Of a stretch of 64,000 bases of DNA, positions 1 to 53,320 are shown piece by piece. The notes beneath the pieces were generated by a model, which saw only the letters and a list, made by a program, of their open reading frames with translations, did not search any database and was not told where the DNA came from. Each line of letters starts with the position of its first letter. The first letter of the stretch is position 1. This stretch comes from a virus: positions 1 to 64,000 of the IMG/VR virus record IMGVR_UViG_3300050014_000073, one strand, 5' to 3'. The position numbers and the translations under genes are program-made.

Positions 1-119
1 TCCCGTTCCGAGACGGGGACAAAGTCTGACAGGCGGACCAGATGAACCGGGTTGAAGCTTTCGCAGTCACAGGACGCAGCAGGCTCCCCGCAAAACTCAC
101 ATACAGGCTCTTGTTGCAT
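1..119 (-). CDS. small Cys-rich hypothetical protein (partial, runs off window)
   Basis: AAGGAGAG RBS then ATG at 119; MQQEPVCEFCGEPAASCDC... Confidence 0.6.
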   Translation of the reverse strand, partial: MQQEPVCEFCGEPAASCDCESFNPVHLVRLSDFVPVSER

Positions 120-132
120 TTGCTCTCCTTGT

Positions 133-189
133 TTTCCCTCTGTGTTTGGTACGGGCTTGGGACCGTTCTCTTTCGAGAGCCACATTACC
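133..189 (-). ncRNA. twister ribozyme (with P3 hairpin; P1 weak or absent)
   Basis: Minus strand reads UAA-UGU-GGC-[UCUC GAAA GAGA]-ACGG UCCC AAGC CCGU-ACCAAAC-ACA-GA-GGG; matches twister core with P2 UGU/ACA, P4 ACGG/CCGU, pseudoknot CCC/GGG. Confidence 0.88.
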
Positions 190-224
190 TTCAGCCCTGG
201 GGAGAGCTGAAGTGTTGAAAGAAG

Positions 225-581
225 TTAGGGATGGGACTGTTTCCAGCGAATGTTCCAGTCACTGATGATTTGATCCATTTCAACCGTTCCGAGAACCTTG
301 AATGGCACAATAGGTGCAACTATCGCGCAGCAGAAGTGGATCTTCAGCTCCATGCTAAATTTGTTGTTGATCTCAGTCACCAAATCCCGATAATGCTGAG
401 TTGACCAACCTGAAATCATCATAAACCCTTTCGCGAGGGGCTTGCTCAATGCTTGAGCGATAGGTTCCGTCATGTCAATAAACGGACCTGGATGAACCGG
501 CTGCACGAAAAGTGAGACCTGCTTGCCTTGTGACATGACGCTAATCATATTGCAAGACTTGAGTAAGTCAGTAGGGGTCAT
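225..581 (-). CDS. hypothetical protein (118 aa; true start 581, not 698)
   Basis: AAGGAGAG RBS before ATG 581; the upstream part of the track ORF is hairpin and ribozyme. Confidence 0.75.
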   Translation of the reverse strand: MTPTDLLKSCNMISVMSQGKQVSLFVQPVHPGPFIDMTEPIAQALSKPLAKGFMMISGWSTQHYRDLVTEINNKFSMELKIHFCCAIVAPIVPFKVLGTVEMDQIISDWNIRWKQSHP

Positions 582-595
582 TTTGCTCTCCTTTA

Positions 596-653
596 TTTCG
601 TCCTCCGCTTTCTTCCCGCTGGACTTGGAACCAGCCGTTGGCGCGTTACGAGA
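596..653 (-). ncRNA. twister ribozyme
   Basis: UCG-UAA-CGC-GC-CAACGG-CUGG UUCC AAGU CCAG-CGGGAAGAAA-GCG-GA-GGA-CGA; P1 UCG/CGA, P2 CGC/GCG, pseudoknot UCC/GGA. Confidence 0.82.
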
Positions 654-779
654 CCGTGCAGGTGGGGGCTTAACCGTCAGCCCCCACCTATCTCCCACCC
701 GACCGCTCCGGGACCGTCCTAGCGACCCGGAGAGGTCAAGTTTTCGGTGTTTTAGGCGTCCCGGGAGTCTTCCCGGGAG

Positions 780-1787
780 CTACGAGACCGTGATAGCACC
801 TCTTGCTTGAGCAGTACTGACCGCCCAGCCCACGTAGTCTCGCAGACCGATTGCTTGGAGCGCCTGCTTGTAGTCGGCGAGCGTCATCCCGTCGCGCAGG
901 ACGTTGATAGCTACCATCCGCTTGCCACCCACGCGAACCAGTCCAAGGTTGATGACGTGAATCGTAGCATGAGGCGAAACTTTTGGTGCACGAGGACCAG
1001 CTGCGGGACGCGGCGCTCCGGGAGTTGCAGCCTTCCGGCTTGCTCGTCCTGCCTTGGGAACCTTACCAACGGGCTTCATCAGACGGTCGGCTTTCGCAGC
1101 CCAGTCATATACGTTGCTGAGGACCGTAGGCAGCGTCGCGATGTACTTGACTCCGTCGAGCGAGGCAGTACCCTCTTCATCAGTCACGATGCTGAGAACC
1201 TGCGTGACCGTGGGAACTTCCCCAAGTACCGTTTTCAGCGGAGGGCGTCCGATCATCTGGTCGAGTTCAGCAGATGGGATCAGAACCTCTCCGTTGAGGA
1301 ACTCACGATCAGCGTTGAACGTGATCCGGAACTTTGTACCTGAGACAGCGAAGGCACCATTCAGGTTACCAAGTACCGTCATCACGTCCTGTACATGCTG
1401 TCCTTTCTGAGGAGCAGCAGCGTCCACTAGCGGCAAGCTGTTCTTCATAGCCCAGAGCTTCTCGAACAGCCGGATGGCCGTCGTCAGTGCCTGAGCCTTT
1501 TCACCTTCGGACGTATTGTTCTCGCCAAGAGCCTTCGCCTTGAGCGCCCTGTCATACGTCTTGATCTGGTCACTGTCCAACGGAGCGCCTGCAATCATCA
1601 TCGTGATGTTGTTGGCGTACCATTCGATTGCTAGCTGTAAGCCCAGCGTGACGCTGAGTGCCTTCCATTCGTAGGCTGTTTGCAAACCTGTGAGGTCCAG
1701 TCGGAGGGGCTGAACTGCGATGGGCGGCGGTACGGTGTTGGTGTTCACACCATACCCGTACCCACGCCTTCTACCGAATCTTGGCAT
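780..1787 (-). CDS. hypothetical protein with basic Pro/Ala linker and small C-terminal domain
   Basis: 335-aa ORF, AAGGAGAG RBS. Confidence 0.8.
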   Translation of the reverse strand: MPRFGRRRGYGYGVNTNTVPPPIAVQPLRLDLTGLQTAYEWKALSVTLGLQLAIEWYANNITMMIAGAPLDSDQIKTYDRALKAKALGENNTSEGEKAQALTTAIRLFEKLWAMKNSLPLVDAAAPQKGQHVQDVMTVLGNLNGAFAVSGTKFRITFNADREFLNGEVLIPSAELDQMIGRPPLKTVLGEVPTVTQVLSIVTDEEGTASLDGVKYIATLPTVLSNVYDWAAKADRLMKPVGKVPKAGRASRKAATPGAPRPAAGPRAPKVSPHATIHVINLGLVRVGGKRMVAINVLRDGMTLADYKQALQAIGLRDYVGWAVSTAQARGAITVS

Positions 1788-1820
1788 GTTGCTCTCCTTC
1801 TCTACTTACTTATTAGAACT

Positions 1821-1876
1821 TGATCCTTCCGCTTTCTTCCCGTCAGGCTGAGGACTGACCGTTGGCGCGTTAATCA
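1821..1876 (-). ncRNA. twister ribozyme
   Basis: UGAU-UAA-CGC-GC-CAACGG-UCAG UCCU CAGC CUGA-CGGGAAGAAA-GCG-GA-AGG-AUCA; P1, P4 and pseudoknot (CCU/AGG) covary against the 596-653 copy. Confidence 0.85.
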
Positions 1877-1930
1877 TTAGGAGTAGGGGGGAGGCTGAAG
1901 AACCTCCCCTTCGATTGTACGTGATGTGAA

Positions 1931-2911
1931 CTACGAGTTGGTGGGTGGCGGTAGGAGTTTGCGGTGAACGGCTTCGACGAACTTGGCTTCGAACTCTCTC
2001 TCAGAATTAACTACGCAGTATTCCCCGCCAAGTGCGACGCAAGCGGCGCGGAGTTCAGCATTGGCGCAGCCCTCTTCGCCAATGTGGATGTAGTCAAGAA
2101 CGATGCCGGAGGCTTTCAGATTTGGGACCCACGAGCTGATTGCCATGCTGGCGCTCCCATCTTCGCCGTCTGTCACCAAGATGAAGTGATGCAGCCCGAC
2201 GACGCTGGGGTGTTTGCGGCAGCAGTCAACGCCTTTCTTGATAGCCTTGAGAATGTCCGTCCCGCCGCCAAGCCCTTCGGCTAGGTTGCCCACGATCGGC
2301 CAGAGCTGTTCGGGCTTGCCGTCGTCAAATCGAACTTCGGCGGTTGACGCGAACGGGATGACGGCCACACGGGAGTTGGGGAACTTTGCGAACCGGGCTT
2401 GCAGTTCACTCTTGGCTAGCTTACGGACTAGCTCCAAACGCGTGGGAGGCTGCTGGTGCTTTTTGCTGAAGTCGACTGCGACTCCGAGGTACGCGATGAG
2501 ATCAGTCCGTAGGATGCGGGCTTTGAGGTCCTCGTCATCTTTGGGGTTGAACGCCGGACCAGCATTCACGGCTCCGACCGGAGCGTCGTCCACCAGTTTG
2601 AGCAAGTCGGACTCGTTGCAGCCCATCCCTCCGGACATGATGAACTCGTTGATTGCAGCAGCAACGCGGGTGCGGACGTCAGCGAGTAGTGCAGCTGGCC
2701 AAAGGTACTGGTCGGTGTAGGTTTGGCCCGTCTTGTCTGCCGCAACGCGCATACCCATCGAACCGCTGACGTCGAACAGGAAGACAATCTTGGCATGCTC
2801 GGTGTAAGTGTCTGAAACGGACTTGAGAACGGAAGTCTTTTGCACTTCGGTTTGGCGCAAGGTCAAGGCGCTACCCATGCTGCCGGAAAGATTCATGTTG
2901 TCGAGTTTCAC
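1931..2911 (-). CDS. von Willebrand factor A (vWA) domain protein
   Basis: MIDAS DVSGSM, GGTD, ILVTDG motifs. Confidence 0.9.
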   Translation of the reverse strand: MKLDNMNLSGSMGSALTLRQTEVQKTSVLKSVSDTYTEHAKIVFLFDVSGSMGMRVAADKTGQTYTDQYLWPAALLADVRTRVAAAINEFIMSGGMGCNESDLLKLVDDAPVGAVNAGPAFNPKDDEDLKARILRTDLIAYLGVAVDFSKKHQQPPTRLELVRKLAKSELQARFAKFPNSRVAVIPFASTAEVRFDDGKPEQLWPIVGNLAEGLGGGTDILKAIKKGVDCCRKHPSVVGLHHFILVTDGEDGSASMAISSWVPNLKASGIVLDYIHIGEEGCANAELRAACVALGGEYCVVNSEREFEAKFVEAVHRKLLPPPTNS

Positions 2912-3219
2912 TTTTGCTCTCCTTTTGATAGCCCTCGCAGGTTATTTAGCGCTTCGATACCTATGCCGATCACGTCCATGTGCGTGGACGTTTCCGGGTC
3001 GGCAACGGCTTCGATCAGCTTACGAGTGTTGCGAATTACTTCCTGCAAGCGATTGAGTTCAGAACTCATGTCCGCTGCGTCCGGTTTCCCGCTTCCGCCT
3101 TTGTACCAGTCACTCACAGTGCAGTCACGCATTGCGCCACGCGCCACTTGCAACCGCTTTTCGCGATCCAGGTAAATCTTTTCGCCTGGTTTCAGATCTA
3201 GCGTTCTAAACTTTGTCAT
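2908..3219 (-). CDS. hypothetical protein
   Basis: AAGGAGAG RBS before ATG 3219; stop overlaps vWA start. Confidence 0.7.
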   Translation of the reverse strand: MTKFRTLDLKPGEKIYLDREKRLQVARGAMRDCTVSDWYKGGSGKPDAADMSSELNRLQEVIRNTRKLIEAVADPETSTHMDVIGIGIEALNNLRGLSKGEQK

Positions 3220-3914
3220 TGGATTTGCTCTCCTTGTTTTGTCCCGTTGGCATACTGCTTCCAAGCGCACCTCGTGGCGGTGGGATCTTGCGCTCTGGGA
3301 ACGAGGATGTTTTCTCGCTCCCCTTGAAATTCAAAATTTTCCGTTTTCGTGATGAGTATTTGCCGGTTCCTTAAGAGCCGCACGGCGCTCGTCCTTGCAC
3401 TCGCCGTCTCCAACTCGCTTGTGGTATACGGCTAACGGCCCGGTTTGCGGTGCGGTCGCTATATATAGGTTGCGTTTGGCGCCTTTCCGGTTTTGGGGTA
3501 CTAGCTTCGGCCTCTCCTGCGCCTAACCCTCGTTGCTCCCAATGGCGTTTGCTAGTGGCTGTCCTAGCCGTCTGGGTACGGGGTGCGGCACGGTATGGGC
3601 GCTGCGTTCCGCCTCACGGTGTGGCTATTTAGTTGTCTAAAGAACTGGGCTCGGTACGGCCAGGGTGGCGTAATACCTAGCGCTCCCGGAGTTGCACCGT
3701 GGCGCTACTGGTACCGGGCGTCCCGCCCGTCCCGCCGCTACTGTCCGTACCGTTTTCATAACCTAATACCTTTATAAACCCTAGCGGGAGGTTTCGGGTG
3801 GTTTTGCGGAACTATTTTTTGAGTTCTAAGCCCTTTGTTTGCAACGGGGACCTGAACTTTGCGAATAAAAGCACATTGCGAAAGTTCGGATTTGACCAGT
3901 TTACGGCGTTACGA

Positions 3915-4433
3915 CTACGCTCCTTGAAAACGACGACGGACAAACTCCGCGAGAAGCAACGCCTCTGCACGGCCATCATCTTTCTTTCGAGTGAGCATCG
4001 GAGCAGCTTGGGGAAAGAGCATCTGTGCCCGAACGATAGAGGCAGACTTGTCGAATCCAGAACCTTTTCCTAACATCTCCTTCTTCCAAGCCTGCGGTGT
4101 CACTCGCTCTAAAGGCAGTCCGAGAGCTGCAATAATCCCTCTCCAGATCCCAACTCCTTCTCCCATAACGAACATTGAGTGAGTACCCTGGCCTGGCATA
4201 GCTCCTACAAGTTCCAGTCCTACCATTCCTACCGTTCCTTCATTCGCAATATCGATAAGGACTTGCGCCATTGTTCGAGGAAGGTAGACGTGCTGATGCT
4301 TCTTGCCTTTCTTGACTTCAGTGATTGGGGTGTCAACGATCTTGACAAGCTTCTTTTCAGAAGTCAGGACAGCAACAGCTCCGAAAAACCCGGGATCAAT
4401 CCCAACAAAAAGTTCAGATGGTTTCATGTACAT
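3915..4433 (-). CDS. RuvC-like Holliday junction resolvase
   Basis: VGIDPG, E motif, VTPQAWKK, DDGRAEALLLA. Confidence 0.88.
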   Translation of the reverse strand: MYMKPSELFVGIDPGFFGAVAVLTSEKKLVKIVDTPITEVKKGKKHQHVYLPRTMAQVLIDIANEGTVGMVGLELVGAMPGQGTHSMFVMGEGVGIWRGIIAALGLPLERVTPQAWKKEMLGKGSGFDKSASIVRAQMLFPQAAPMLTRKKDDGRAEALLLAEFVRRRFQGA

Positions 4434-4617
4434 CTTCTCCTATAACAAGTTCAGTTTCGTAGGCTTTCAGCTTACGAAGCGGGATGTTGAACCGAGGATT
4501 GACCGGGAACTCCAACTTGCTCTTTCGGGTCGTCCCGCAAAGCGTACAGGTCTGCACTCCATTCTGTGGCCAGCCGTATTCGTGAGTCCACGGAGTTTCA
4601 CAAGCAAAGATCTTCAT
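4414..4617 (-). CDS. small Zn-finger-like hypothetical protein
   Basis: C..H..CxxC pattern; coupled to neighbours. Confidence 0.5.
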   Translation of the reverse strand: MKIFACETPWTHEYGWPQNGVQTCTLCGTTRKSKLEFPVNPRFNIPLRKLKAYETELVIGEDVHETI

Positions 4618-4822
4618 GTTCTACGTTTCCGTTGCAGTCCCTGAAGTCGCTATCGCTTATACACTTCCACAACCAACGCTTCCACGTTCGCACTGCTGTG
4701 CCTAACCACCTATAGCTACGAAAATCGGAAAGTCCTTCCGGGTAGGCAGGCCACATTTCACCGAACTCGTTTATGTTGTTTGTCACCCAGCTCCCAAGCA
4801 CTGTATAACAAAAGCTTCGCAC
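4598..4822 (-). CDS. hypothetical protein
   Basis: Fills the operon gap; start uncertain. Confidence 0.4.
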   Translation of the reverse strand: MRSFCYTVLGSWVTNNINEFGEMWPAYPEGLSDFRSYRWLGTAVRTWKRWLWKCISDSDFRDCNGNVEHEDLCL

Positions 4823-4831
4823 GGACCACAG

Positions 4832-5611
4832 TTAATGATTATCTTGAACATTGCCTTTGACTCCCTTCATTGCATTGCGGAGCGCACGGATAGTCAACAC
4901 CTTACAGTGAATACTGTTCTCCGGCATCCATTTCTCAACTAGCGCCAACGCTTCCTCTATGTCAAGCACCTGCTCCGCAATCGCGGCCTGCAAGTCGTTA
5001 CGTTCAAGTGCTGTCTGCGCTAACGTGGAAGAGAGTTGCGTCCGCTCTACGTTGGCAATCGCGTACAACTCTTTCTGGGTTGCAAGCGTGGCCTGGACAG
5101 TCATCAATTTCTCCCGCATGTCGTCATAGCCTTCCAGCCGCGCCACCCGTCGGCCGTGGTCGTTGTCTTGGACAAGGGCCGCGAACTCATCCGGCGTAAT
5201 AAGCTCAGTCCCGAATAGTTCATGCCGCTGGTAGCGGACAAGATCGGTGAGGCGCTGGTTCACGGTCCCAAGTTTCTCCATCCCTGCCCTCAGAGGTTGC
5301 AACTTGGTCACATCCCAATTTAGAAGCGAACCCGCCAGGTCGGCATTCGCCTTCCTCAGCTGCTTGATCTCTGCCTCAGCAGTTTCGGCGCGCTTCTTCC
5401 ACTCCAGTGATTTGCCCAGGCTGATCCCAGGTGTGACGTTGATCGCCCGGAGTTCTCGGATGACACACAGACGCTCATTAGACTCTTGTGTGAGCCTATC
5501 GATCTCCGCCGCAGCCCGGCACAGAGGACACTTCTCATGCTCGCTGTCCAAATGCCCGATCTGTTGATGCCCATCACGGCACATGTGTGGATAACTTTCG
5601 GTGTTAGCCAT
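4832..5611 (-). CDS. coiled-coil hypothetical protein with N-terminal Cys/His motif
   Basis: GGAGG RBS; heptad-like composition. Confidence 0.7.
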   Translation of the reverse strand: MANTESYPHMCRDGHQQIGHLDSEHEKCPLCRAAAEIDRLTQESNERLCVIRELRAINVTPGISLGKSLEWKKRAETAEAEIKQLRKANADLAGSLLNWDVTKLQPLRAGMEKLGTVNQRLTDLVRYQRHELFGTELITPDEFAALVQDNDHGRRVARLEGYDDMREKLMTVQATLATQKELYAIANVERTQLSSTLAQTALERNDLQAAIAEQVLDIEEALALVEKWMPENSIHCKVLTIRALRNAMKGVKGNVQDNH

Positions 5612-5648
5612 TTCGCACCTCCAACACTGATATTATCTTAGACTTTGA

Positions 5649-8462
5649 TTATACGGGAAGTTCTCTTAGAGTTGAAATCCCGTCCTTCTTTGTAACTTCC
5701 CAATGGCGATCTGGTTCCAGTTCCGACAAGACGTAAGGTGAATGCGAAATCACGATGACGTGCTTGAACCGTTCAATTACGGAACTCAGTCCCTGTGCAA
5801 AAGCTCTTGCGTTCGAGGCATCTAGTCCCTCCGTAGGCTCGTCCATCACTAGGAGGTTATGAGGAACAAGTGCATCCCGGAAAGCAAGAGCCGTTATCAG
5901 GCCCGCGAGACGCATCTCTCCAGCGCTCTGGTCCTTTATGGATTTCCCCCCATGAAGATTGCAAACTCGGACGTCAATGTCTCCTCCCGAAATCTCGAAT
6001 TGGATTCCAATCTCTCCTTCCGAGAAGATCTCGCTGTATTTAGAAGCTGCAGAGTTGAGTGCCGGTGCTACGACGGAGCACAAGTAAGCCGGGAGCCCAT
6101 CACGTCCTACAACTTTGACACAAGTCTCAAGAAACTGAACTTCTTCTAACCAGGCAAGATTTGCTCTTTCATGAACAGACCGCTTTTGCTTCAGTTCTGC
6201 TCCACGTGACATCTTGGAAGAGAGAATTGTTTCCAGACGCCGACGAGCATCAGCTTGCTCTTTTAGAACGGTCAAACTGCTGTTCAAGGCAGTCAAAGTT
6301 CGTCGCATCTTATCGCTCTGGAAATTATTCGCTTGGATCTTTTCAATGAGAGTTCGACGAGTAGTTCGGTTCTCGTTTTGCAATCCTTCATAGCGTTCAA
6401 GAGTGACTTCTTCACAGGCAATCTTCGACTTGATCTCCTCTTGGTATTTCTCGAGAGTTTCAACGGATACTTTCCCTCCGCAGACATAGCAGCGTCCAGA
6501 GACTTTTGCACTCGCGTCGTACTGTTCCTTAAGAGTTTCGATCTTCGTTTCCGATTCCGTTGCTTTCGAGAGATAGCTTTCAAACTCCTGCTGGTTCTTT
6601 TCCATTGTTGGCTCCAGCGTCTTATTCATTAGGGCGTTCCGACGAATTGAAGCCTCTTCCTCAGCAACGGCTTTCTCTGTCTCGGAAACTTTCTTCGAAT
6701 CAACTTCGGGAGTTGTTGTAAGAGTCTCCTGTATCTCGGTCAGTCCTCTGACAGTCTCTTCAAGAGCGGAATCAAGCGAACGGATTTCACCTTCGGTATC
6801 TTCGACATTATTACGGCAGCGTGAAAGGACTTTCCGGATCTTCTCCTGAGCTTCCAGGAATCGGTCAAGTCCAAGAAGACGGCTGAACAGTTCCTTCCTG
6901 TCTTTCTCGGTTCCGAACACTGAACCAATCTCGCGCTGCCCAATATAGACAGCATTCGTCAGAACAGACCAGGTCAAGTTTGTCAGGCGTTCAATGCGCA
7001 TCTGAGTGGCCTCAGCTGTTCCCATTGAAATCTCACTTCCGTCAAGATAAATCCGCAGCCGTCCAGGACGCCGTCCTCGTTCGATTCGGAGACTTCGTCC
7101 GTCCGGTATCTCCAAACTTTGTGTGACAAGTGCTGGAAGAGTGGACTCCTGACGCGCCCAGCCGTCAAATGTCTGGCCTTTGAAAGTTCGTCCGAAAAGA
7201 GCAAGAAAGGGCAATGCAGTAACGCTTGATTTCCCACTTCCGTTACTTACACTCTCGTCCGGGTTCCAGTCCAGGTTCTTTCCGGTGATGAGAGTGAGTC
7301 CTTTTTGGTCCAGGTTCAGCTTGATGTCTTTGAAACAGAGAACTTCCTTCGCAGTGACCTCTCCGAACTTCAATCCCTGAACGCCGAATACTCCAATTGA
7401 CTTGAGGTACGTCTGCAAATATGCAATAACTTGATCGACTGTCACTCCTGCTGGAAGCACCAGCTTCTCAAGGTAGTCACGAAGAAGTCCCTCGTCGTTC
7501 TTGGTTGTGTCAATACTGGTGGGAACAGCTTGTGGAGCAACAAACTCGGGAACGAGGTGAAGGTTTGCTCCTGGATAATGCTTTTCGCAGATCTTTCTAG
7601 CTGAGGCGAGTTCCTTTGGAACGTCGTTCTCAATGGGCACTGAAATGCGAACTCTTGTTCCCGTCCAGTCTATCGGGGAAAAGAAGTCTTTCTTAGAAGG
7701 GTCGTACCAGCCGGGAACTCGACTGGGAACGAGAGTGACGCAGTGCTTGAGGGTCTTCTCATCGATGTCAAGGCAGAAGATGCTCTTCAGTTCATTCACT
7801 TCGCTCCAAGTTTGGCAAAACGGGGAACCTGCGAAATAGATTGGAGTTCCTTTTCCTCCCTTGGGAACTAATAGTTGTGGGAGGTGAATGTGACCTCCAA
7901 CGCAGATATTATAAGTTTCAGCAGAGAGGTAAGGACGAATGAGACCTTTCCCTTTCGTATAGGTGCTTTGCTGACACCCTTCGACCTCGTTGTGGAAAAC
8001 AAGGATGCCAAAATCGCTAGAAGGGTATTTCGTAGCTTCCTGAGCGGCTGCTGCAAACTCCTTCCGTTGAGATTCCGGATCACGCAGGTATGGAACTAAG
8101 AACAGCCGGACGTGAGGTCCTAGCTTCGCAACTTTCCAACCGTGATCCGCGACAACGTCTGCTCCAAGAGCTTCGATAAGAGTAGCGCAGGACGGTGAAC
8201 CATCATGAATAGTCACGCTGTCATGATTTCCGCGAAGGAAATAAACTCCTTGACACTGTTCCCGAATCCTTCGAACGGATTCAACCAGGAAATTTGTAAC
8301 TCTCTGATCAATCAAAGTTGCTGGACCGTTGGCGCTCCCGACAATGTCTCCCAGATGAACAACGAAATCTGGTTTCAGGGAAAGGATCTGATCGACGATG
8401 ATTTGGCAGCGATCTAAGTTCTCGAGGAAGCAATGCCAATCTCCACTCATGATGACACGCAT
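5649..8462 (-). CDS. fused SbcD (Mre11-like metallophosphoesterase)-SbcC (Rad50-like ATPase)
   Basis: GDWH, LGD, GNHD, GHIH nuclease motifs; NGSGKS Walker A, coiled coil with CYVC hook, SAGE signature, LLVMDEP Walker B, VISH. Confidence 0.9.
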   Translation of the reverse strand: MRVIMSGDWHCFLENLDRCQIIVDQILSLKPDFVVHLGDIVGSANGPATLIDQRVTNFLVESVRRIREQCQGVYFLRGNHDSVTIHDGSPSCATLIEALGADVVADHGWKVAKLGPHVRLFLVPYLRDPESQRKEFAAAAQEATKYPSSDFGILVFHNEVEGCQQSTYTKGKGLIRPYLSAETYNICVGGHIHLPQLLVPKGGKGTPIYFAGSPFCQTWSEVNELKSIFCLDIDEKTLKHCVTLVPSRVPGWYDPSKKDFFSPIDWTGTRVRISVPIENDVPKELASARKICEKHYPGANLHLVPEFVAPQAVPTSIDTTKNDEGLLRDYLEKLVLPAGVTVDQVIAYLQTYLKSIGVFGVQGLKFGEVTAKEVLCFKDIKLNLDQKGLTLITGKNLDWNPDESVSNGSGKSSVTALPFLALFGRTFKGQTFDGWARQESTLPALVTQSLEIPDGRSLRIERGRRPGRLRIYLDGSEISMGTAEATQMRIERLTNLTWSVLTNAVYIGQREIGSVFGTEKDRKELFSRLLGLDRFLEAQEKIRKVLSRCRNNVEDTEGEIRSLDSALEETVRGLTEIQETLTTTPEVDSKKVSETEKAVAEEEASIRRNALMNKTLEPTMEKNQQEFESYLSKATESETKIETLKEQYDASAKVSGRCYVCGGKVSVETLEKYQEEIKSKIACEEVTLERYEGLQNENRTTRRTLIEKIQANNFQSDKMRRTLTALNSSLTVLKEQADARRRLETILSSKMSRGAELKQKRSVHERANLAWLEEVQFLETCVKVVGRDGLPAYLCSVVAPALNSAASKYSEIFSEGEIGIQFEISGGDIDVRVCNLHGGKSIKDQSAGEMRLAGLITALAFRDALVPHNLLVMDEPTEGLDASNARAFAQGLSSVIERFKHVIVISHSPYVLSELEPDRHWEVTKKDGISTLRELPV

Positions 8463-8473
8463 GTATTTTCCTT

Positions 8474-8572
8474 TTTAGCGACCCTAGGACCGTCGCTGCA
8501 TCCTAACCTATGGAAAAGTACCTAACAACCCGTCCGGACGTGTCCTAGCGACCCGTAGCGATCAGGTTTAGG
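8474..8572 (-). repeat. dispersed two-box element, copy 1
   Basis: CTACGGGTCGCTAGG-47 nt-GCGACGGTCCTAGGGTCGCTAAA; 32 bp identical to 41687-41718. Confidence 0.8.
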
Positions 8573-9970: not shown

Positions 9971-11695
9971 TTACTCTCCTTCCTTCTTCTTGACATCGTC
10001 AGCCGGGACAAATTCTAGCGGTCCGTTGAAAAGTAATCTGTAGCCAATCTCCGAGGATTCTCCTCCACCCGTCTTGTTCTTGAGGCATTTCATGATTCCA
10101 CGAATACCGATCACTTCGCCCTTATCCATAATCTTGCTCCCCGCAACGCGGTGAACTCGAACTCGAACGTGGCTGTAGAACTTTGGGGCATTGCCTCCCG
10201 GTGTATGAGAAGAGTCACCAAACGATGATTTGGGGCCTTCACGAAGCTGGTTGACAAGAATGATAAGTGCATTATGAACTTGCGCACATCCTACCCAACG
10301 CCGAAGAAGCCTCCCCATGAAAAGAGGAAGGTCCATATTCGTTCGCATGTTGGCATCTTCAAGGCCCGTGAGGGATTCACCTTCAGTAAGGAGTGCTGCG
10401 ATGGAGTCTAAGACAACAACTCGTTTCGTATGCCCTTTTTGTTGCATTGACGCTTCGATCTCACTACAGAGCTCTTGAGCAGTCGAGAGCCGAGGATTCT
10501 TCTCTTGGTGAGTCTTCCCGGTCTTCTTGTCAACGTAACTGAACTGACCAACATAGGGCTGAATCAAAGTCAGTTTGGATACATCGAGACCAGCCGTCGT
10601 AGCTTCAGGACCGCCGCAGGAAATGCATTCGGTAAGAATAGCAGGGTCTTTCACTGTTGGACGGGTTCCAGTTCCATTGCAGTGCGGGCACTTTGCCATC
10701 CCACGGACCCTTGCCCAACCGGGATCGAAACTGTTCTCGACGTCACCGTATACAACATGGGCCCCGTCGTATTGAGCAAGAGCCGCGATTGACATCACGA
10801 GGGCCGACTTTCCCTGTGAGTTATGGACCACGACGCCGTTCGCAACGAAGTTGTCGATCCCTGGAACGGTCATGTCGTAGACGTCTTCGTAGCCGTAGAA
10901 TTCCACCTTCTTGACTTTGCCGGATCTTCCTTCTAAGTTCCGTTTTGTTGCGTGGTACGAGAGGTGATCGAAGCAAGTCTTCCATTCGAGGTTGTCGACG
11001 GAATGATTATGGTCGTTCTCGTCTTTATGATGCCCGTCCCATTCATCTGTCGGACGATCACCATAAATCTCTGAAAGAATGAACCGATGCTCCGAAAAAT
11101 TCTCACCGTTGTTCAAATGAATTACAGAATGCCCGTTCGTCAGCTTCCGAAAGAAGGGCATGATGCGATCTCCCGGCTTCAGATCTGAAAGTTTTCGGTA
11201 TCCTTGTGACTCCCAATCGTAAGCGGAACTGTACTTCGATCGAGAGGTTGAACGTTCACGAAGCATGAACGGATGAGAAGCAGTCGCGATAATGAACTCG
11301 GGTTGCTTTCCATAGATACGAACTGAGTTCTTAGGGACTTGGAAGGTTACTTTGTAGACAGGACGCTTTCCTACTTTCCAGACACAAGACGCCTGTCGAA
11401 GTACGATGCGTCCTAACTTCTGATCAAAGCCATACACCCATGGCTTGGTCCCGACAAGGTTTTTGATGGGGATTCCTTTCGGGAATCTATCAAGGTCTCG
11501 CGGACAGTCGATTAAAGTTTCTCCGGCGAGACACTCCCACCCAGAAACTTCGATCATCCTCCCATACGGGATTCCGCGATCCTTGTGTCCTAGAACAGTA
11601 TTCAGTCCGGGGATTTTCGTGTCAAGCCAGAGCTGAGGCGTCCATTTGAGAGTAAGATGCCCCAGAGCTTGCCGTATCCTGTCTAATTCAGTCAT
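9971..11695 (-). CDS. recA: RecA/UvsX-like recombinase containing an intein
   Basis: GIPYGRMIEVSGWE/SQGKS split P-loop, VVLDSIAAL, NQLR, TPGGNAPKFY, KNK. Confidence 0.93.
   Translation of the reverse strand: MTELDRIRQALGHLTLKWTPQLWLDTKIPGLNTVLGHKDRGIPYGRMIEVSGWECLAGETLIDCPRDLDRFPKGIPIKNLVGTKPWVYGFDQKLGRIVLRQASCVWKVGKRPVYKVTFQVPKNSVRIYGKQPEFIIATASHPFMLRERSTSRSKYSSAYDWESQGYRKLSDLKPGDRIMPFFRKLTNGHSVIHLNNGENFSEHRFILSEIYGDRPTDEWDGHHKDENDHNHSVDNLEWKTCFDHLSYHATKRNLEGRSGKVKKVEFYGYEDVYDMTVPGIDNFVANGVVVHNSQGKSALVMSIAALAQYDGAHVVYGDVENSFDPGWARVRGMAKCPHCNGTGTRPTVKDPAILTECISCGGPEATTAGLDVSKLTLIQPYVGQFSYVDKKTGKTHQEKNPRLSTAQELCSEIEASMQQKGHTKRVVVLDSIAALLTEGESLTGLEDANMRTNMDLPLFMGRLLRRWVGCAQVHNALIILVNQLREGPKSSFGDSSHTPGGNAPKFYSHVRVRVHRVAGSKIMDKGEVIGIRGIMKCLKNKTGGGESSEIGYRLLFNGPLEFVPADDVKKKEGE
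10820..11533 (-). mobile_element. intein (238 aa) with HNH homing endonuclease in the RecA Walker A motif
   Basis: Starts CLAGET, block B TASHPF, EHR..HHKDENDHNHSVDNL, ends VYDMTV..NFVANGVVVHN followed by Ser. Confidence 0.93.
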
Positions 11696-18073: not shown

Positions 18074-18511
18074 TTATACGGTTTCGGGCTTTGGTTTCCC
18101 TAGCAGAGCAAGCTGACAGACTTTTGAATCAGGACAGAGAAACTTACACTCATTCGCAGAAGGGTCATATCCTAGCAGCTCAGTTCCATTGAGGAGAATT
18201 GTTGTTGGCTTCCCAAAACAGGAGATAGAGTAAGGAGCTTTCTGCATTGCTACATAGCAGAACGAACAGATCATCGTCTCGAGACGGTATAGACCTGAAA
18301 TGATCTCCTTCCTGGTAAATCTTCTTTGACAGCGTAAGCACTCAAGTGCCTTGCAGTCTTTAGGAAGCTTGCGGGTCTCTAGGATCGCTGCGTCGGGTAA
18401 GGTCCCCAGCCTAGCTGCTATTCCACCTAACGGACGCGTCCTAGCGACCCGTATGCCTCGCCGTAGCTCTTTAGGGATAGGCGTACCGAAAATATTCGCT
18501 CTAGGAAGCAT
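18074..18511 (-). CDS. Cys-rich zinc-binding hypothetical protein
   Basis: CxxC..CxxC and CFG..C..C..C. Confidence 0.65.
   Translation of the reverse strand: MLPRANIFGTPIPKELRRGIRVARTRPLGGIAARLGTLPDAAILETRKLPKDCKALECLRCQRRFTRKEIISGLYRLETMICSFCYVAMQKAPYSISCFGKPTTILLNGTELLGYDPSANECKFLCPDSKVCQLALLGKPKPETV
18372..18453 (-). repeat. dispersed two-box element, copy 2 (inside CDS)
   Basis: TACGGGTCGCTAGG-48 nt-GCAGCGATCCTAGAGACCCG. Confidence 0.6.
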
Positions 18512-33228: not shown

Positions 33229-33313
33229 TACGGATTGCTAGGTCGTTTCCGTGGCATCCGGTTTGTGGAAAGTACCGTATAACTAGTCTAGCGACGGTCC
33301 TAGGGTCGCTAAA
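33229..33313 (+). repeat. dispersed two-box element, copy 3
   Basis: TACGGATTGCTAGG-48 nt-GCGACGGTCCTAGGGTCGCTAAA. Confidence 0.75.
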
Positions 33314-41686: not shown

Positions 41687-41783
41687 CCTAAACCTGATCG
41701 CTACGGGTCGCTAGGACAGTCTGTAGACTCTGGATAGGTACTTTTCTACGCCATAGTCAACGCTAGCCTTAAACGGTCTCTAA
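41687..41783 (+). repeat. dispersed two-box element, copy 4
   Basis: CCTAAACCTGATCGCTACGGGTCGCTAGGACA identical to copy 1; TAGGTACTTTTC shared; degenerate second box. Confidence 0.75.
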
Positions 41784-53231: not shown

Positions 53232-53320
53232 GCTACGGGTCGCTAGGGCAGCTTGCAAGGGTCTAACTAGTATATTTCATAGGGTAGCCGGTCAGAGACC
53301 GTCCTAGGGTCGCTAAACAC
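53232..53320 (+). repeat. dispersed two-box element, copy 5
   Basis: GCTACGGGTCGCTAGG-47 nt-GAGACCGTCCTAGGGTCGCTAAACAC. Confidence 0.8.

What the first reader, a model, noticed from the sequence alone, without database searches (positions are those of the whole stretch)
121..1910. Gene cassettes punctuated by hairpin + twister ribozyme + RBS modules
Seen: three successive junctions share the order stop, GC hairpin without U-tract (1888-1909, 660-689, 189-212), twister ribozyme (1821-1876, 596-653, 133-189), AAGGAGAG RBS, ATG. P4 and the pseudoknot covary across copies (CCC/GGG, UCC/GGA, CCU/AGG). Known: twister cleaves U|A leaving 5'-OH and 2',3'-cyclic phosphate; 5'-OH RNA resists 5'-monophosphate-dependent decay; these ends are RtcB substrates. 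Inference: the phage self-processes an early polycistron into insulated monocistronic mRNAs without host RNases. Genes 225-581 and 780-1787 lie between two ribozymes and could be ligated into circular mRNAs.
Basis: partly seen in the sequence, partly recalled or inferred. Interest (0 to 1): 0.9.

Follow-up and report, generated by a model that had tools for sequence, protein, structure and literature searches.

The report
Twister ribozymes between phage genes
Three copies of a known self-cutting RNA, the twister ribozyme, sit between consecutive genes of an uncultivated peat phage and probably cut one long message into single-gene messages; this is a small, clean example of an arrangement already proposed for phages.

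Summary
On the minus strand, three successive junctions read stop, GC hairpin without U-tract, twister-like element, AAGGAGAG, ATG, at the stated coordinates.

Rfam gives no hit at gathering score. Below it, twister-P1 matches copy A (132-191, 38.5 bits) and copy B (597-652, 30 bits), but not copy C. A model built without B and C finds B (E 2.5e-5 in 64 kb) and ranks C third (10.4 bits, E 0.15 in 6 kb).

The strongest support comes from relatives. Four metagenome contigs encoding homologues of the flanked proteins carry 12 more twisters on the coding strand, 9 of them above Rfam's cut-off, at the same kind of junction. The T1 pseudoknot is Watson-Crick in 15 of 15, in four covarying versions.

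The processing idea, and the circular-RNA idea, were printed in 2011 for prophage hammerhead arrays. A synthetic system (pRAP) uses the same stem-loop, twister, RBS design. I found no support for circular mRNA.

This scan has already noted twister arrays in at least 35 other genomes. Verdict: a real new member of a known kind, of moderate interest.

The parts
1931..2911 (-). Upstream gene (326 aa, von Willebrand factor A domain). Its stop codon at 1931-1933 opens junction C.
   Evidence: ORF list; Pfam VWA_2 and VWA above their cut-offs; homologues at 47-52% identity precede a twister in L003-L006.
1888..1909 (-). GC hairpin of junction C: 7-bp stem, 8-nt loop, no U-tract. It ends 15 nt before the scissile bond.
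   Evidence: In one search RNAfold extends the stem to 9 pairs with a 4-nt loop (-16.3 kcal/mol, z -3.2). No terminator-like call there.
1821..1876 (-). Twister copy C, type P1 without P3. P1 1873-1876 pairs with 1821-1824; predicted cleavage U1872|A1871; P2 1867-1869 pairs with 1830-1832; P4 and loop 1842-1860; L1 (GAAGG) 1825-1829.
   Evidence: No Rfam hit. R1 gives 10.4 bits, E 0.15 in 6 kb, third-best hit, full length. T1 CCU/AGG and four P4 pairs are Watson-Crick. Flanks are identical to copy B. One loop A is replaced by C.
1792..1799 (-). Shine-Dalgarno-like AAGGAGAG of the 335-aa gene.
   Evidence: the same module occurs at five consecutive starts.
780..1787 (-). Gene of 335 aa, no Pfam or PHROG family, flanked by copies C and B. 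The predicted C-to-B fragment is 1224 nt (1871 to 648).
   Evidence: homologues P0001-P0003 and in L003-L006.
706..732 (-). Hairpin in junction B that contains box A of a dispersed element of this genome. A further hairpin lies at 760-777.
661..688 (-). GC hairpin of junction B (about 10-bp stem, no U-tract). It ends 12 nt before the scissile bond.
   Evidence: (-26.1 kcal/mol, z -4.6).
597..652 (-). Twister copy B, type P1 without P3. P1 is 3 bp (649-651 with 598-600); predicted cleavage U648|A647; P2 643-645 pairs with 606-608; P4 and loop 618-635; L1 (GAGGA) 601-605.
   Evidence: RF03160 30.0 bits, E 7.6e-4 in 2.4 kb and 0.02 in 64 kb. R1, built without it, gives 26.8 bits, E 2.5e-5 in 64 kb. 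T1 UCC/GGA.
586..593 (-). Shine-Dalgarno-like AAGGAGAG of the 118-aa gene.
225..581 (-). Gene of 118 aa, no Pfam or PHROG family, flanked by copies B and A. The predicted B-to-A fragment is 461 nt (647 to 187).
   Evidence: 8 distant relatives in the representative library.
189..212 (-). GC hairpin of junction A (10-bp stem). It ends 1 nt before the scissile U, where type-P5 twisters have their closed P1. Its 5' strand and loop hold a 7-nt complement of the downstream SD.
   Evidence: -14.8 kcal/mol, z -5.5. The Twister-P5 model reads 151-216 at 20.6 bits. SD complement: 48 of 2000 shuffles reach it. A hairpin with a nearly identical loop and a covarying stem precedes the twister at L005:50.
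132..191 (-). Twister copy A, type P1 with a P3 hairpin (167-179). Predicted cleavage U187|A186; P2 181-184 pairs with 141-144; P4 and loop 151-166; L1 (GAGGG) 136-140. No canonical P1 (0 of 4 pairs).
   Evidence: RF03160 38.5 bits, E 2.8e-6 in 2.4 kb and 7.4e-5 in 64 kb. T1 CCC/GGG.
123..130 (-). Shine-Dalgarno-like AAGGAGAG of the last visible gene.
3..119 (-). Start of a further gene (39 codons seen) that runs off the end of the record.
   Evidence: The window starts at base 1 of the 83,140-bp record. An RNA-library contig runs on beyond base 1.

Best explanation
The three elements are type-P1 twister self-cleaving ribozymes, transcribed as part of the minus-strand message that runs through the VWA gene, the 335-aa gene, the 118-aa gene and at least one more gene.

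Inferred mechanism:
- Each ribozyme folds as it is made and cuts at its own 5' edge (U1872|A1871, U648|A647, U187|A186).
- The upstream cistron is then left with a short 3' tail that ends in a stable GC hairpin and a 2',3'-cyclic phosphate.
- The downstream cistron starts with a 5'-OH and the folded ribozyme body. Its Shine-Dalgarno sequence lies 56-74 nt and its start codon 66-84 nt after the cut.
- The result is separate single-gene mRNAs with defined, hairpin-capped ends, so each gene's stability and translation no longer depends on its neighbours.

Shown here: the fold, its covariation, the module order, and its conservation in relatives.

Inferred, not shown: cleavage in the cell, co-transcription of the genes, and any effect on stability or translation.
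For: 1. Twister identity.
- Rfam twister-P1 hits A and B.
- An independent model finds B at E 2.5e-5 and puts C third.
- The T1 pseudoknot is fully Watson-Crick in 15 of 15 twisters (14 distinct), in four versions. None of 20,000 shuffles reaches this, and sliding the partner gives 0-2 of 15.
- A fifth version, CUC/GAG, occurs in L007.

2. Conservation.
- The 335-aa protein's homologues (40-46% identity to the window's protein) lie on four metagenome contigs.
- In those 12.6 kb, Rfam finds 12 twisters, all on the coding strand. Nine are Twister-P5 at 44-63 bits, above the gathering score of 37.6.
- Each sits between a stop codon and the next SD and start.
- On the nine type-P5 copies, 93.8% of cells pair and 12 of 18 pairs show changes on both sides. 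None of 500 shuffles reaches that.

3. Same junctions.
- The order VWA gene, twister, 335-aa gene is kept in the window and in L003, L004, L005 and L006.
- A twister also follows the 335-aa gene in the window, L003 and L004.

4. A hairpin ends 0-15 nt before the scissile bond in 15 of 15. It is the closed P1 itself in the type-P5 copies and a separate hairpin in the 6 type-P1 copies.

5. The engineered pRAP system uses exactly stem-loop, twister, RBS, ORF between cistrons.
- It yields monocistrons in E. coli.
- Its authors report that without the stem-loop the upstream cistrons were poorly expressed (PMC9872166, passages).

6. In vitro, three tandem prophage hammerhead arrangements cut about 2-kb polycistronic transcripts into the expected pieces (PMC3088659, passages).
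Against: - No copy reaches Rfam's gathering score for twister-P1 (67.2).
- Copy C has no Rfam hit, and a C at a loop position that is A in the 14 other tabulated copies.
- Copy A has no canonical P1. P1 is reported to be dispensable for cleavage (PMC6154101; PMC5113685).
- Nothing here shows cleavage, or that the genes share one transcript.
- Junction B holds box A of a dispersed element that elsewhere sits directly upstream of genes. If that is a promoter, copy B would trim a leader rather than split a polycistron.
- Two further starts in the same block (3219 and 2911) carry the same SD module without any ribozyme. A ribozyme is therefore not needed at every cistron.
- A 5'-OH is not always protective. 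The glmS ribozyme destabilises its mRNA; I saw only the title in a reference list, and the RNase J1 mechanism is recalled.
- The reason for the link between ribozymes and phage genes is called 'still unknown' in 2023 (PMC10085705).
Confidence: 0.6

Rival explanations
1. Cleavage-gated translation. In some type-P1 modules the Shine-Dalgarno sequence is paired with a pyrimidine stretch upstream of the scissile bond. Self-cleavage puts the two on different molecules and frees the ribosome-binding site. The ribozyme would then act as a translational switch or timer, not only as a cutter. This refines the best explanation rather than excluding it.
For: - In L004:5257 the 3' strand of P1 is the SD itself: a 6-nt complement ending at the cleavage site.
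- In copy A, a 7-nt complement of the SD lies in the upstream hairpin (48 of 2000 shuffles reach it).
- In L005:50, a 10-nt complement lies in the upstream hairpin (0 of 2000).
- The hairpins of copy A and L005:50 have nearly the same loop with different, still complementary stems.
Against: - It is seen in only 3 of 7 type-P1 modules. Copies B, C, L003:1906 and L004:1517 are at chance level.
- It is seen in none of the 8 type-P5 modules tested.
- In copy A and L005:50 the complement overlaps the hairpin stem, which should form first.
- The shuffle control is mononucleotide only, and I picked the window around the SD by eye.
Confidence: 0.2
2. Cassette-junction reading. The repeated ribozyme-plus-SD modules persist mainly because they travel with genes and serve as homology for gain, loss and shuffling of single-gene cassettes among related phages. 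RNA cleavage would be secondary.
For: - Five consecutive starts share the same 12-nt SD module.
- One contig from an RNA library joins 2907 to 3216. That removes exactly the 103-aa gene, from one SD-and-start module to the next.
- Gene content around the conserved VWA/335-aa pair differs between the window and L003-L006.
- The ribozyme at the orthologous VWA/335-aa junction is type P5 in the four relatives and type P1 in the window.
Against: - Compensatory changes in P1, P2, P4 and both pseudoknots show selection on the folded catalytic RNA, not just on a DNA repeat.
- The one observed indel lies between SD modules that have no ribozyme.
- Orientation is always sense to the genes: 12 of 12 in the four contigs.
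Confidence: 0.12
3. Circular mRNA. The 461-nt and 1224-nt fragments bounded by two ribozymes are ligated (5'-OH to 2',3'-cyclic phosphate) by a host RtcB into circular, exonuclease-proof mRNAs.
For: - The end chemistry of twister products fits RtcB substrates (established knowledge; the RtcB reference title was seen).
- Two genes are bounded by ribozymes on both sides.
Against: - No RtcB or PF09414 RNA ligase is encoded in the 83-kb record, which is estimated 80% complete. The PF09511 search was uninformative.
- The ends of each fragment show no obvious complementarity that would bring them together.
- Perreault et al. report that they could not detect circular or spliced products for hammerhead arrays.
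- Each 3' end is buried in a hairpin, and each 5' end lies in the ribozyme fold.
Confidence: 0.04
4. Decayed or inactive copies. Some or all of the window's three elements are relics of the type-P5 ribozymes seen in relatives and no longer cleave.
For: - All three score far below the relatives' copies (30-38 bits or no hit, against 44-63 bits).
- Copy C departs at a conserved loop adenine.
- Copy A lacks P1.
- A ribozyme-less junction upstream (3217-3330) keeps only the SD-proximal part of the module.
Against: - Compensatory changes in T1 (B and C) and in four P4 pairs between B and C, beside identical flanks, argue for continuing selection on the fold.
- 71% of single mutants of a twister keep detectable activity. 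Only four positions (G13, G30, A46, G48) tolerate no substitution at all (PMC5113685). Mapping the two loop adenines outside those four rests on my own recalled numbering of that ribozyme.
- The low scores partly reflect the high type-P1 threshold and the missing P3 and P1.
Confidence: 0.1

Closest known systems
Type-P1 twister ribozyme (Rfam RF03160). The class is that of Roth et al. 2014, known to me here only through citing passages and recall, because the paper is not held.
   Same: - UAA at the cleavage site.
- P2 and P4 helices and the 10-nt P4 loop.
- Both pseudoknots (T1, T2).
- An optional P3, present in copy A.
- The 5' and 3' ends on the P1 side.
   Different: - Scores are below Rfam's gathering cut-off.
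- P1 is absent (A) or only 3-4 bp (B, C).
- Copy C has a C at a conserved loop A.
- In copy A (and in L005:50) a closed hairpin abuts the scissile site where P1 would stack. The chain is therefore open between L1 and P1 rather than at the far end of P1.
Type-P5 twister ribozyme (Rfam RF02684)
   Same: It is the form found at the equivalent junctions of the relatives (9 hits above the cut-off). Its closed P1 hairpin sits immediately 5' of the cut, as the separate GC hairpins do in the window.
   Different: The window has no full type-P5 copy. The P5 model only reads hairpin-to-P4 pieces at 20.6 and 15.5 bits.
Clustered hammerhead ribozymes flanking single genes or short gene blocks in prophages (Perreault et al. 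2011, PMC3088659; passages read)
   Same: - Several self-cleaving ribozymes in one phage transcript, bracketing individual genes of varying identity.
- The same proposed role: cutting long phage transcripts into gene-length mRNAs.
- The same speculation about circular products.
   Different: - A different ribozyme class.
- In this phage lineage the ribozyme fills nearly every junction of a gene run.
- It comes with a fixed SD module, and a hairpin always precedes the cut.
pRAP, ribozyme-assisted polycistronic co-expression (synthetic; PMC9872166, passages read)
   Same: The same part order between cistrons: stem-loop, type-P1 twister cutting at its 5' end, RBS, ORF. The published rationale for the stem-loop (protecting the 3' end of the released upstream cistron) fits the natural hairpins.
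   Different: It is engineered, transcribed by T7 RNA polymerase, and uses one identical ribozyme at every junction. The phage modules are natural, diverged from each other, and of two permutation types in the lineage.
glmS ribozyme
   Same: A self-cleaving ribozyme inside a bacterial mRNA that sets the fate of the downstream message through its new 5'-OH end.
   Different: It is metabolite-dependent and, as recalled, destabilising through RNase J1. I saw only the paper's title. It shows that the sign of the effect proposed here depends on the host.

Membership tests
Twister ribozyme, type P1 (RF03160) | Covariance-model score at or above Rfam's gathering score (67.2 bits) | tested here: not met
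   A 38.5 bits, B 30.0 bits, C no hit. The relatives' type-P1 copies also stay below it (55.0, 49.7, 35.0 bits).
Twister ribozyme, type P1 (RF03160) | Statistically significant full-length match to a twister model | tested here: met
   A: E 7.4e-5. B: E 0.02 in 64 kb with Rfam, and E 2.5e-5 with model R1, built without it. For C this is inconclusive: R1 gives 10.4 bits, E 0.15 in 6 kb.
Twister ribozyme (class) | T1 pseudoknot between P4-loop positions 3-5 and the L1 strand next to P1 | tested here: met
   Three Watson-Crick pairs in A, B and C and in all 12 relatives' copies, in four covarying versions. None of 20,000 shuffles reaches this.
Twister ribozyme (class) | T2 pseudoknot between the two bases after P2 and P4-loop positions 8-9 | tested here: met
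   A and C have GC with GC; B has GC with GU (one wobble), read. In the relatives' type-P5 alignment 81% of cells pair, and both pairs show changes on both sides. Three type-P5 rows with a 2-bp P2 are ambiguous.
Twister ribozyme (class) | P2 and P4 helices and the conserved P4 loop | tested here: met
   P2 is 4, 3 and 3 bp; P4 is at least 3-4 Watson-Crick pairs in all three. The loop matches the Rfam consensus except for compensated T1 and T2 changes and one uncompensated A-to-C change in C.
Twister ribozyme (class) | U-A scissile step followed by A, directly 5' of P2 | tested here: met
   UAA at 187-185, 648-646 and 1872-1870.
Twister ribozyme (class) | P1 helix enclosing the ribozyme | tested here: inconclusive
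   A: 0 of 4 model pairs. B: 3 of 4. C: 4 of 4. P1 is reported as conserved but not essential for cleavage.
Twister ribozyme (class) | Site-specific self-cleavage giving 2',3'-cyclic phosphate and 5'-OH ends | not testable with these tools
   This needs in vitro transcription or end-specific RNA sequencing.
Ribozyme-punctuated phage operon (arrangement of Perreault et al. 2011) | Several self-cleaving ribozymes, sense to the genes, flanking single genes or short blocks in a phage genome | tested here: met
   Three in 1.9 kb of a virus record. There are 6 in 4 kb of L004 and 12 in the four related contigs, all on the coding strand.
Ribozyme-punctuated phage operon (arrangement of Perreault et al. 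2011) | The long transcript is actually cut at the ribozymes | not testable with these tools
   The only RNA material available consisted of assembled contigs, which cannot show RNA ends.

The most novel reading that the evidence does not exclude
In this phage lineage the selected unit is not the ribozyme alone. It is a three-part processing module: a hairpin that ends at the cut, the twister core, and a fixed SD.

- The module has been rebuilt in different strand orders at the same gene junction. It is type P5 in four relatives and type P1 plus a separate hairpin in the window.
- Copy A and L005:50 represent a twister form not yet described: P1 closed by a loop, with the chain open between L1 and P1.
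- In a subset the SD pairs with sequence upstream of the cut, so translation of each cistron would wait for self-cleavage.
Probability: 0.15. Interest if true: 0.6.

Novelty: new member of a known kind. Interest (0 to 1): 0.38.

Why it matters
Why self-cleaving ribozymes cluster near phage genes is an open question of long standing. It is called 'still unknown' in PMC10085705 and 'additional work is needed' in PMC6765202.

This lineage offers a compact test bed:
- short genes,
- a ribozyme at nearly every junction,
- two permutation types at orthologous sites,
- a hairpin always placed at the future 3' end,
- a constant SD.

The parts match a synthetic design that is known to work in E. coli, so the natural function can be tested with ordinary reporter and end-mapping experiments. 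The window's own share is small: three copies at the very end of an incomplete record, one of them of doubtful activity.

Tried and rejected
RNA evidence.
- The look-up of sequencing runs listed six RNA runs holding 7-14% of the sampled words of window 1-3000. I laid the four with the largest shares on 1-4000.
- All four are assembled contigs. They covered only 1-57, 991-1129 and parts of 1920-3284.
- None touched a ribozyme, so they say nothing for or against cleavage.

Searches for relatives that gave nothing.
- blastn of 1-6000 against the phage collection found no match.
- Single-protein scans of viral contigs with the 335-aa, VWA and 118-aa proteins found no relative. The scan with alignment A1 also found none.
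- My first DNA pattern was too strict and found nothing.
- The relaxed pattern found two IMG/VR contigs, L007 and L008, which share the same twister-bearing stretch. It also found one MAG contig, L009, whose match is not a twister: it has no twister loop and no Rfam hit.

More ribozymes in this record.
- Rfam at E up to 1 over 64 kb gave only copies A and B.
- RF03160 and RF02684 over the whole 83 kb gave nothing new.
- A loose loop-motif scan of both strands gave only the three copies in a twister-like context.

Phage-encoded RNA ligase. There was no match for RtcB or RNA_ligase. The RNA_lig_T4_1 search also gave no match, but its own control rang nowhere, so that one is uninformative.

The ORF-free stretch 3271-3914.
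- It has no similarity to L003-L008, and fold z-scores run from -2.2 to +1.0.
- The junction at 3217-3330 keeps the SD-proximal part of module A but has no twister core.

Alignments.
- MAFFT alignments A2, A6 and A7 misplace rows whose linkers differ in length. I did not count pairs on them and used anchor-based extraction instead.
- That count covered the 3 window copies and the 12 Rfam hits of L003-L006.
- It left out copies found later: L005:50, a copy cut by the start of L006, and those of L007 and L008. I read these by eye only.

Literature.
- Three full-text searches found no paper describing twister arrays with hairpin and SD modules in DNA phages. They found only general statements that ribozymes lie near phage genes.
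- Roth 2014, Weinberg 2015 and Felletti 2017 are not held, so what they show about twister gene contexts is taken from citing passages and recall.
- Supplementary files were not opened. Three could bear on the claims about copy C and copy A:
  - the full mutant matrix of PMC5113685 (is A-to-C at the loop adenine tolerated?);
  - Supplementary Figure S13 and File S1 of PMC10085705 (which twister permutations were searched for);
  - the supplementary figures of PMC3088659.


Full report
WHAT THE WINDOW IS. The window is bases 1-64000 of an 83,140-bp IMG/VR virus record, classed as linear and estimated 80% complete. Genes from about 27 kb down to base 1 lie on the minus strand. Upstream of the finding, on that strand, are a RecA-like protein with an intein, a clamp-loader-like ATPase, an SbcCD-like fusion and a Holliday-junction resolvase. 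Of 21 sequencing runs listed for window 1-3000, 13 hold at least half of the sampled words. All 13 are labelled peat metagenome, and 7 of them may be the source sample. No DNA match was found in the phage collection.

CHECK OF THE OBSERVATION. The three junctions have the stated order and coordinates on the minus strand:
- Junction C: stop 1931-1933, hairpin 1888-1909, UAA with the scissile step U1872|A1871, element 1821-1876, AAGGAGAG 1792-1799, ATG 1787.
- Junction B: stop 780-782, two extra hairpins (760-777, 706-732), hairpin 661-688, U648|A647, element 597-652, AAGGAGAG 586-593, ATG 581.
- Junction A: stop 225-227, hairpin 189-212, U187|A186, element 132-191, AAGGAGAG 123-130, ATG 119.

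The three hairpins are much more stable than shuffles (z -3.2, -4.6, -5.5). None is followed by a T-run. The terminator scan called nothing on the minus strand in these junctions and found no more sites than in shuffles.

ARE THEY TWISTERS?
- Rfam gives nothing at gathering scores.
- At the E-value threshold, twister-P1 (RF03160, gathering 67.2) matches copy A at 38.5 bits and copy B at 30.0 bits, both full length. E-values are 7.4e-5 and 0.02 for the whole window.
- Copy C is not reported, even when searched alone.
- I built a model from copy A and three type-P1 copies of relatives, leaving B and C out. It finds B at E 2.5e-5 in 64 kb. With filters off it puts C at exactly 1821-1876 as the third-best hit in 6 kb, but only at 10.4 bits and E 0.15.
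- Covariance models cannot score pseudoknots, and that is where C differs. Its P4 loop reads CCU where the consensus has CCC, and its L1 strand reads AGG where the consensus has GGG. The T1 pseudoknot is therefore kept.
- B and C have identical sequence on both sides of P4, while four P4 pairs are Watson-Crick in each with different bases.
- C's one uncompensated departure is a C at the first of the two loop adenines.
- A deep mutational scan of a rice twister found 71% of single mutants detectably active and only four positions intolerant of any change: G13, G30, A46 and G48 (PMC5113685, first part of the text read). By my recalled numbering the loop adenines are not among them. The mutant-by-mutant data are in supplements I could not open.
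- Copy A pairs at none of the four P1 positions of the model. P1 is reported to be conserved but dispensable.

RELATIVES.
- The 335-aa protein between copies C and B has three homologues in the large protein collection, at 99, 54 and 42% identity.
I therefore scanned the metagenome contigs with an alignment of the four proteins and obtained four contigs, L003-L006, totalling 12.6 kb.
- Rfam finds 12 twisters in them, every one on the strand of the genes. Nine are Twister-P5 at 44.3-62.7 bits, above that family's gathering score of 37.6. Three are twister-P1, at 55.0, 49.7 and 35.0 bits.
- In L004, six ribozymes lie within 4 kb. Each starts within a few bases of a stop codon or after a hairpin, and is followed by an SD of the same GGAGAG type and a start.
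- My model later picked up one more type-P1 copy at L005:50-109 and a copy cut by the start of L006.
- A relaxed DNA pattern found two IMG/VR contigs, L007 and L008, that share the same stretch. L007 has three twisters; L008 has one, plus a weak HDV-like hit.

COVARIATION.
- On the nine type-P5 copies (eight distinct), 93.8% of cells form standard pairs against 73% in shuffles. Twelve of 18 pairs have changes on both sides, no shuffle of 500 reaches the observed values, and slid partners give 27-40% paired.
- Across the 15 twisters of the window and L003-L006, T1 is fully Watson-Crick in 15 of 15, in four versions: UCC/GGA in 7, CCC/GGG in 5, CCU/AGG in 1 and CAC/GUG in 1 (counts among the 14 distinct sequences). 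No shuffle of 20,000 matches this, and slides give 0-2 of 15.
- L007 adds a fifth version, CUC/GAG.
- These sequences are related, so the counts are of sequences, not of independent events.

SYNTENY AND PERMUTATION TYPE.
- The VWA protein and the 335-aa protein are neighbours in the window and in L003, L004, L005 and L006, at 41-52% identity to the window's proteins.
- The junction between them holds a type-P5 twister in all four relatives, and the type-P1 copy C plus a separate hairpin in the window.
- The junction after the 335-aa gene holds a type-P1 twister in the window, L003 and L004.
- In type P5, the closed P1 hairpin ends at the scissile U. In all six type-P1 copies, an independent GC hairpin ends 1-15 nt before it. 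Whatever the strand order, the RNA upstream of the cut ends in a hairpin.
- In copy A the hairpin ends one base before the scissile U, and the Twister-P5 model reads hairpin-to-P4 there at 20.6 bits.
- L005:50 has the same layout, with a nearly identical hairpin loop on a different, still complementary stem.
- This looks like a twister whose P1 is closed and whose chain is open between L1 and P1. I have no test of whether the hairpin really takes P1's place.
- A 2023 search for further twister permutations reported no promising candidates (PMC10085705, passages). I could not see which patterns it used.

MECHANISM. My best reading has four steps:
- The message is transcribed through the junctions. 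This is inferred from co-orientation, short gaps and the absence of terminator-like sites.
- Each twister cuts at its 5' edge. This is inferred from the fold.
- The upstream cistron keeps a 38-132-nt tail ending in a hairpin and a cyclic phosphate.
- The downstream cistron begins with a 5'-OH, the ribozyme body, and 66-84 nt later its start codon.

The synthetic pRAP system has exactly this part order. It produces monocistrons in E. coli, and its authors found the stem-loop before the ribozyme critical for expression of the upstream cistrons (PMC9872166, passages). That makes the hairpin's role as a 3'-end cap the most economical reading. Whether the 5'-OH helps or harms depends on the host's RNases. 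The host is unknown.

A refinement is worth testing. In L004:5257 the 3' strand of P1 is the SD itself. In copy A and L005:50, a 7-nt and a 10-nt complement of the SD lie in the upstream hairpin (48 and 0 of 2000 shuffles reach them). The other four type-P1 modules and all eight type-P5 modules tested are at chance.

POINTS AGAINST A SIMPLE 'ONE POLYCISTRON, CUT EVERYWHERE' PICTURE.
- Two more starts in the same block (3219 and 2911) have the same SD module but no ribozyme.
- Junction B is 198 nt long and contains box A of a dispersed two-box element. That element's five full copies sit directly upstream of genes elsewhere in the window. If it is a promoter or an operator, the transcript structure is more complex.

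CIRCULAR mRNA. I found nothing for it. No RtcB or RNA ligase family is encoded in the 83-kb record (the third search was uninformative). The same idea was raised for hammerhead arrays, whose authors state that they could not detect such products.

WHAT IS KNOWN.
- Perreault et al. 2011 describe multiple hammerheads flanking single genes or short blocks in prophages. [quoted passage not shown]
- The 2019 review repeats the polycistron-processing idea for hammerhead and twister, and notes the location near phage genes (PMC6765202, passages).
- The 2023 paper states that bacterial hammerhead and twister ribozymes are enriched near particular genes, most strongly those of Mu-like phages, and near other ribozymes, for reasons still unknown.
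- My three full-text searches found no description of the hairpin, twister, SD module, or of P5/P1 exchange at one junction, in DNA phages.
- Notes of this scan report twister arrays in phage operons in at least 35 other genomes (37 findings). They are unchecked by me and did not set my score.

VERDICT. Copies A and B are twisters with good support. Copy C is a twister-fold relative of B whose activity is open. The 'early' label and circular mRNAs are unsupported. The class is a new member of a known kind. The added value lies in the conserved three-part module and its exchange of permutation type in this lineage.

Noticed in passing
window 2908-3215 (minus-strand gene 2908-3219): One contig from an RNA library (run X15) joins 2907 directly to 3216. 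On the minus strand this removes exactly the 103-aa gene and puts the VWA reading frame behind the upstream AAGGAGAGCAAA-plus-ATG module. It is probably a strain lacking this one-gene cassette, not splicing. It rests on a single contig of depth 7.6.
   Followed up: partly
window 3271-3914, minus strand: About 640 nt lack an ORF of 70 aa or more on the coding strand, between the resolvase gene and the ribozyme-bearing block. GC is 55% against 52% for the window. There is no Rfam hit, no similarity to L003-L008, and no clear fold signal (z -2.2 to +1.0). It is unexplained and may hold the block's promoter.
   Followed up: partly
window 706-732 (junction B); full copies near 8474-8572(-), 18372-18453(-), 33229-33313(+), 41687-41783(+), 53232-53320(+): Box A of a dispersed two-box element lies inside junction B as the loop and stem of a hairpin. 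The full elements sit directly upstream of genes. Their two boxes contain mutually complementary heptamers about 50 nt apart. The function is unknown (promoter, operator or structured RNA).
   Followed up: partly
window 2911-3233 and 117-130, 579-593, 1785-1799: Five consecutive gene starts share the same 12-nt translation-initiation module (AAGGAGAGCAAA-like). The GGAGAGC core precedes only two other ORF starts in the 83-kb record.
   Followed up: yes
L008:3423-3494 (minus strand of the locus): A weak HDV-like ribozyme hit (RF02682, 36.8 bits against a gathering score of 44, E 1e-3) lies on the same strand as a type-P1 twister about 1 kb away in an IMG/VR contig. It may be a mixed-class ribozyme array.
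   Followed up: no
window 9971-11695, minus strand: A RecA-like protein of 574 aa is interrupted by an intein splicing domain (Pfam).
   Followed up: no
window 1-57 and beyond the record's start: A 646-nt contig of RNA run X18 covers bases 1-57 and continues for about 590 nt past the start of the record. Sequence to the left therefore exists in public data, and the ribozyme array may continue there.
   Followed up: no
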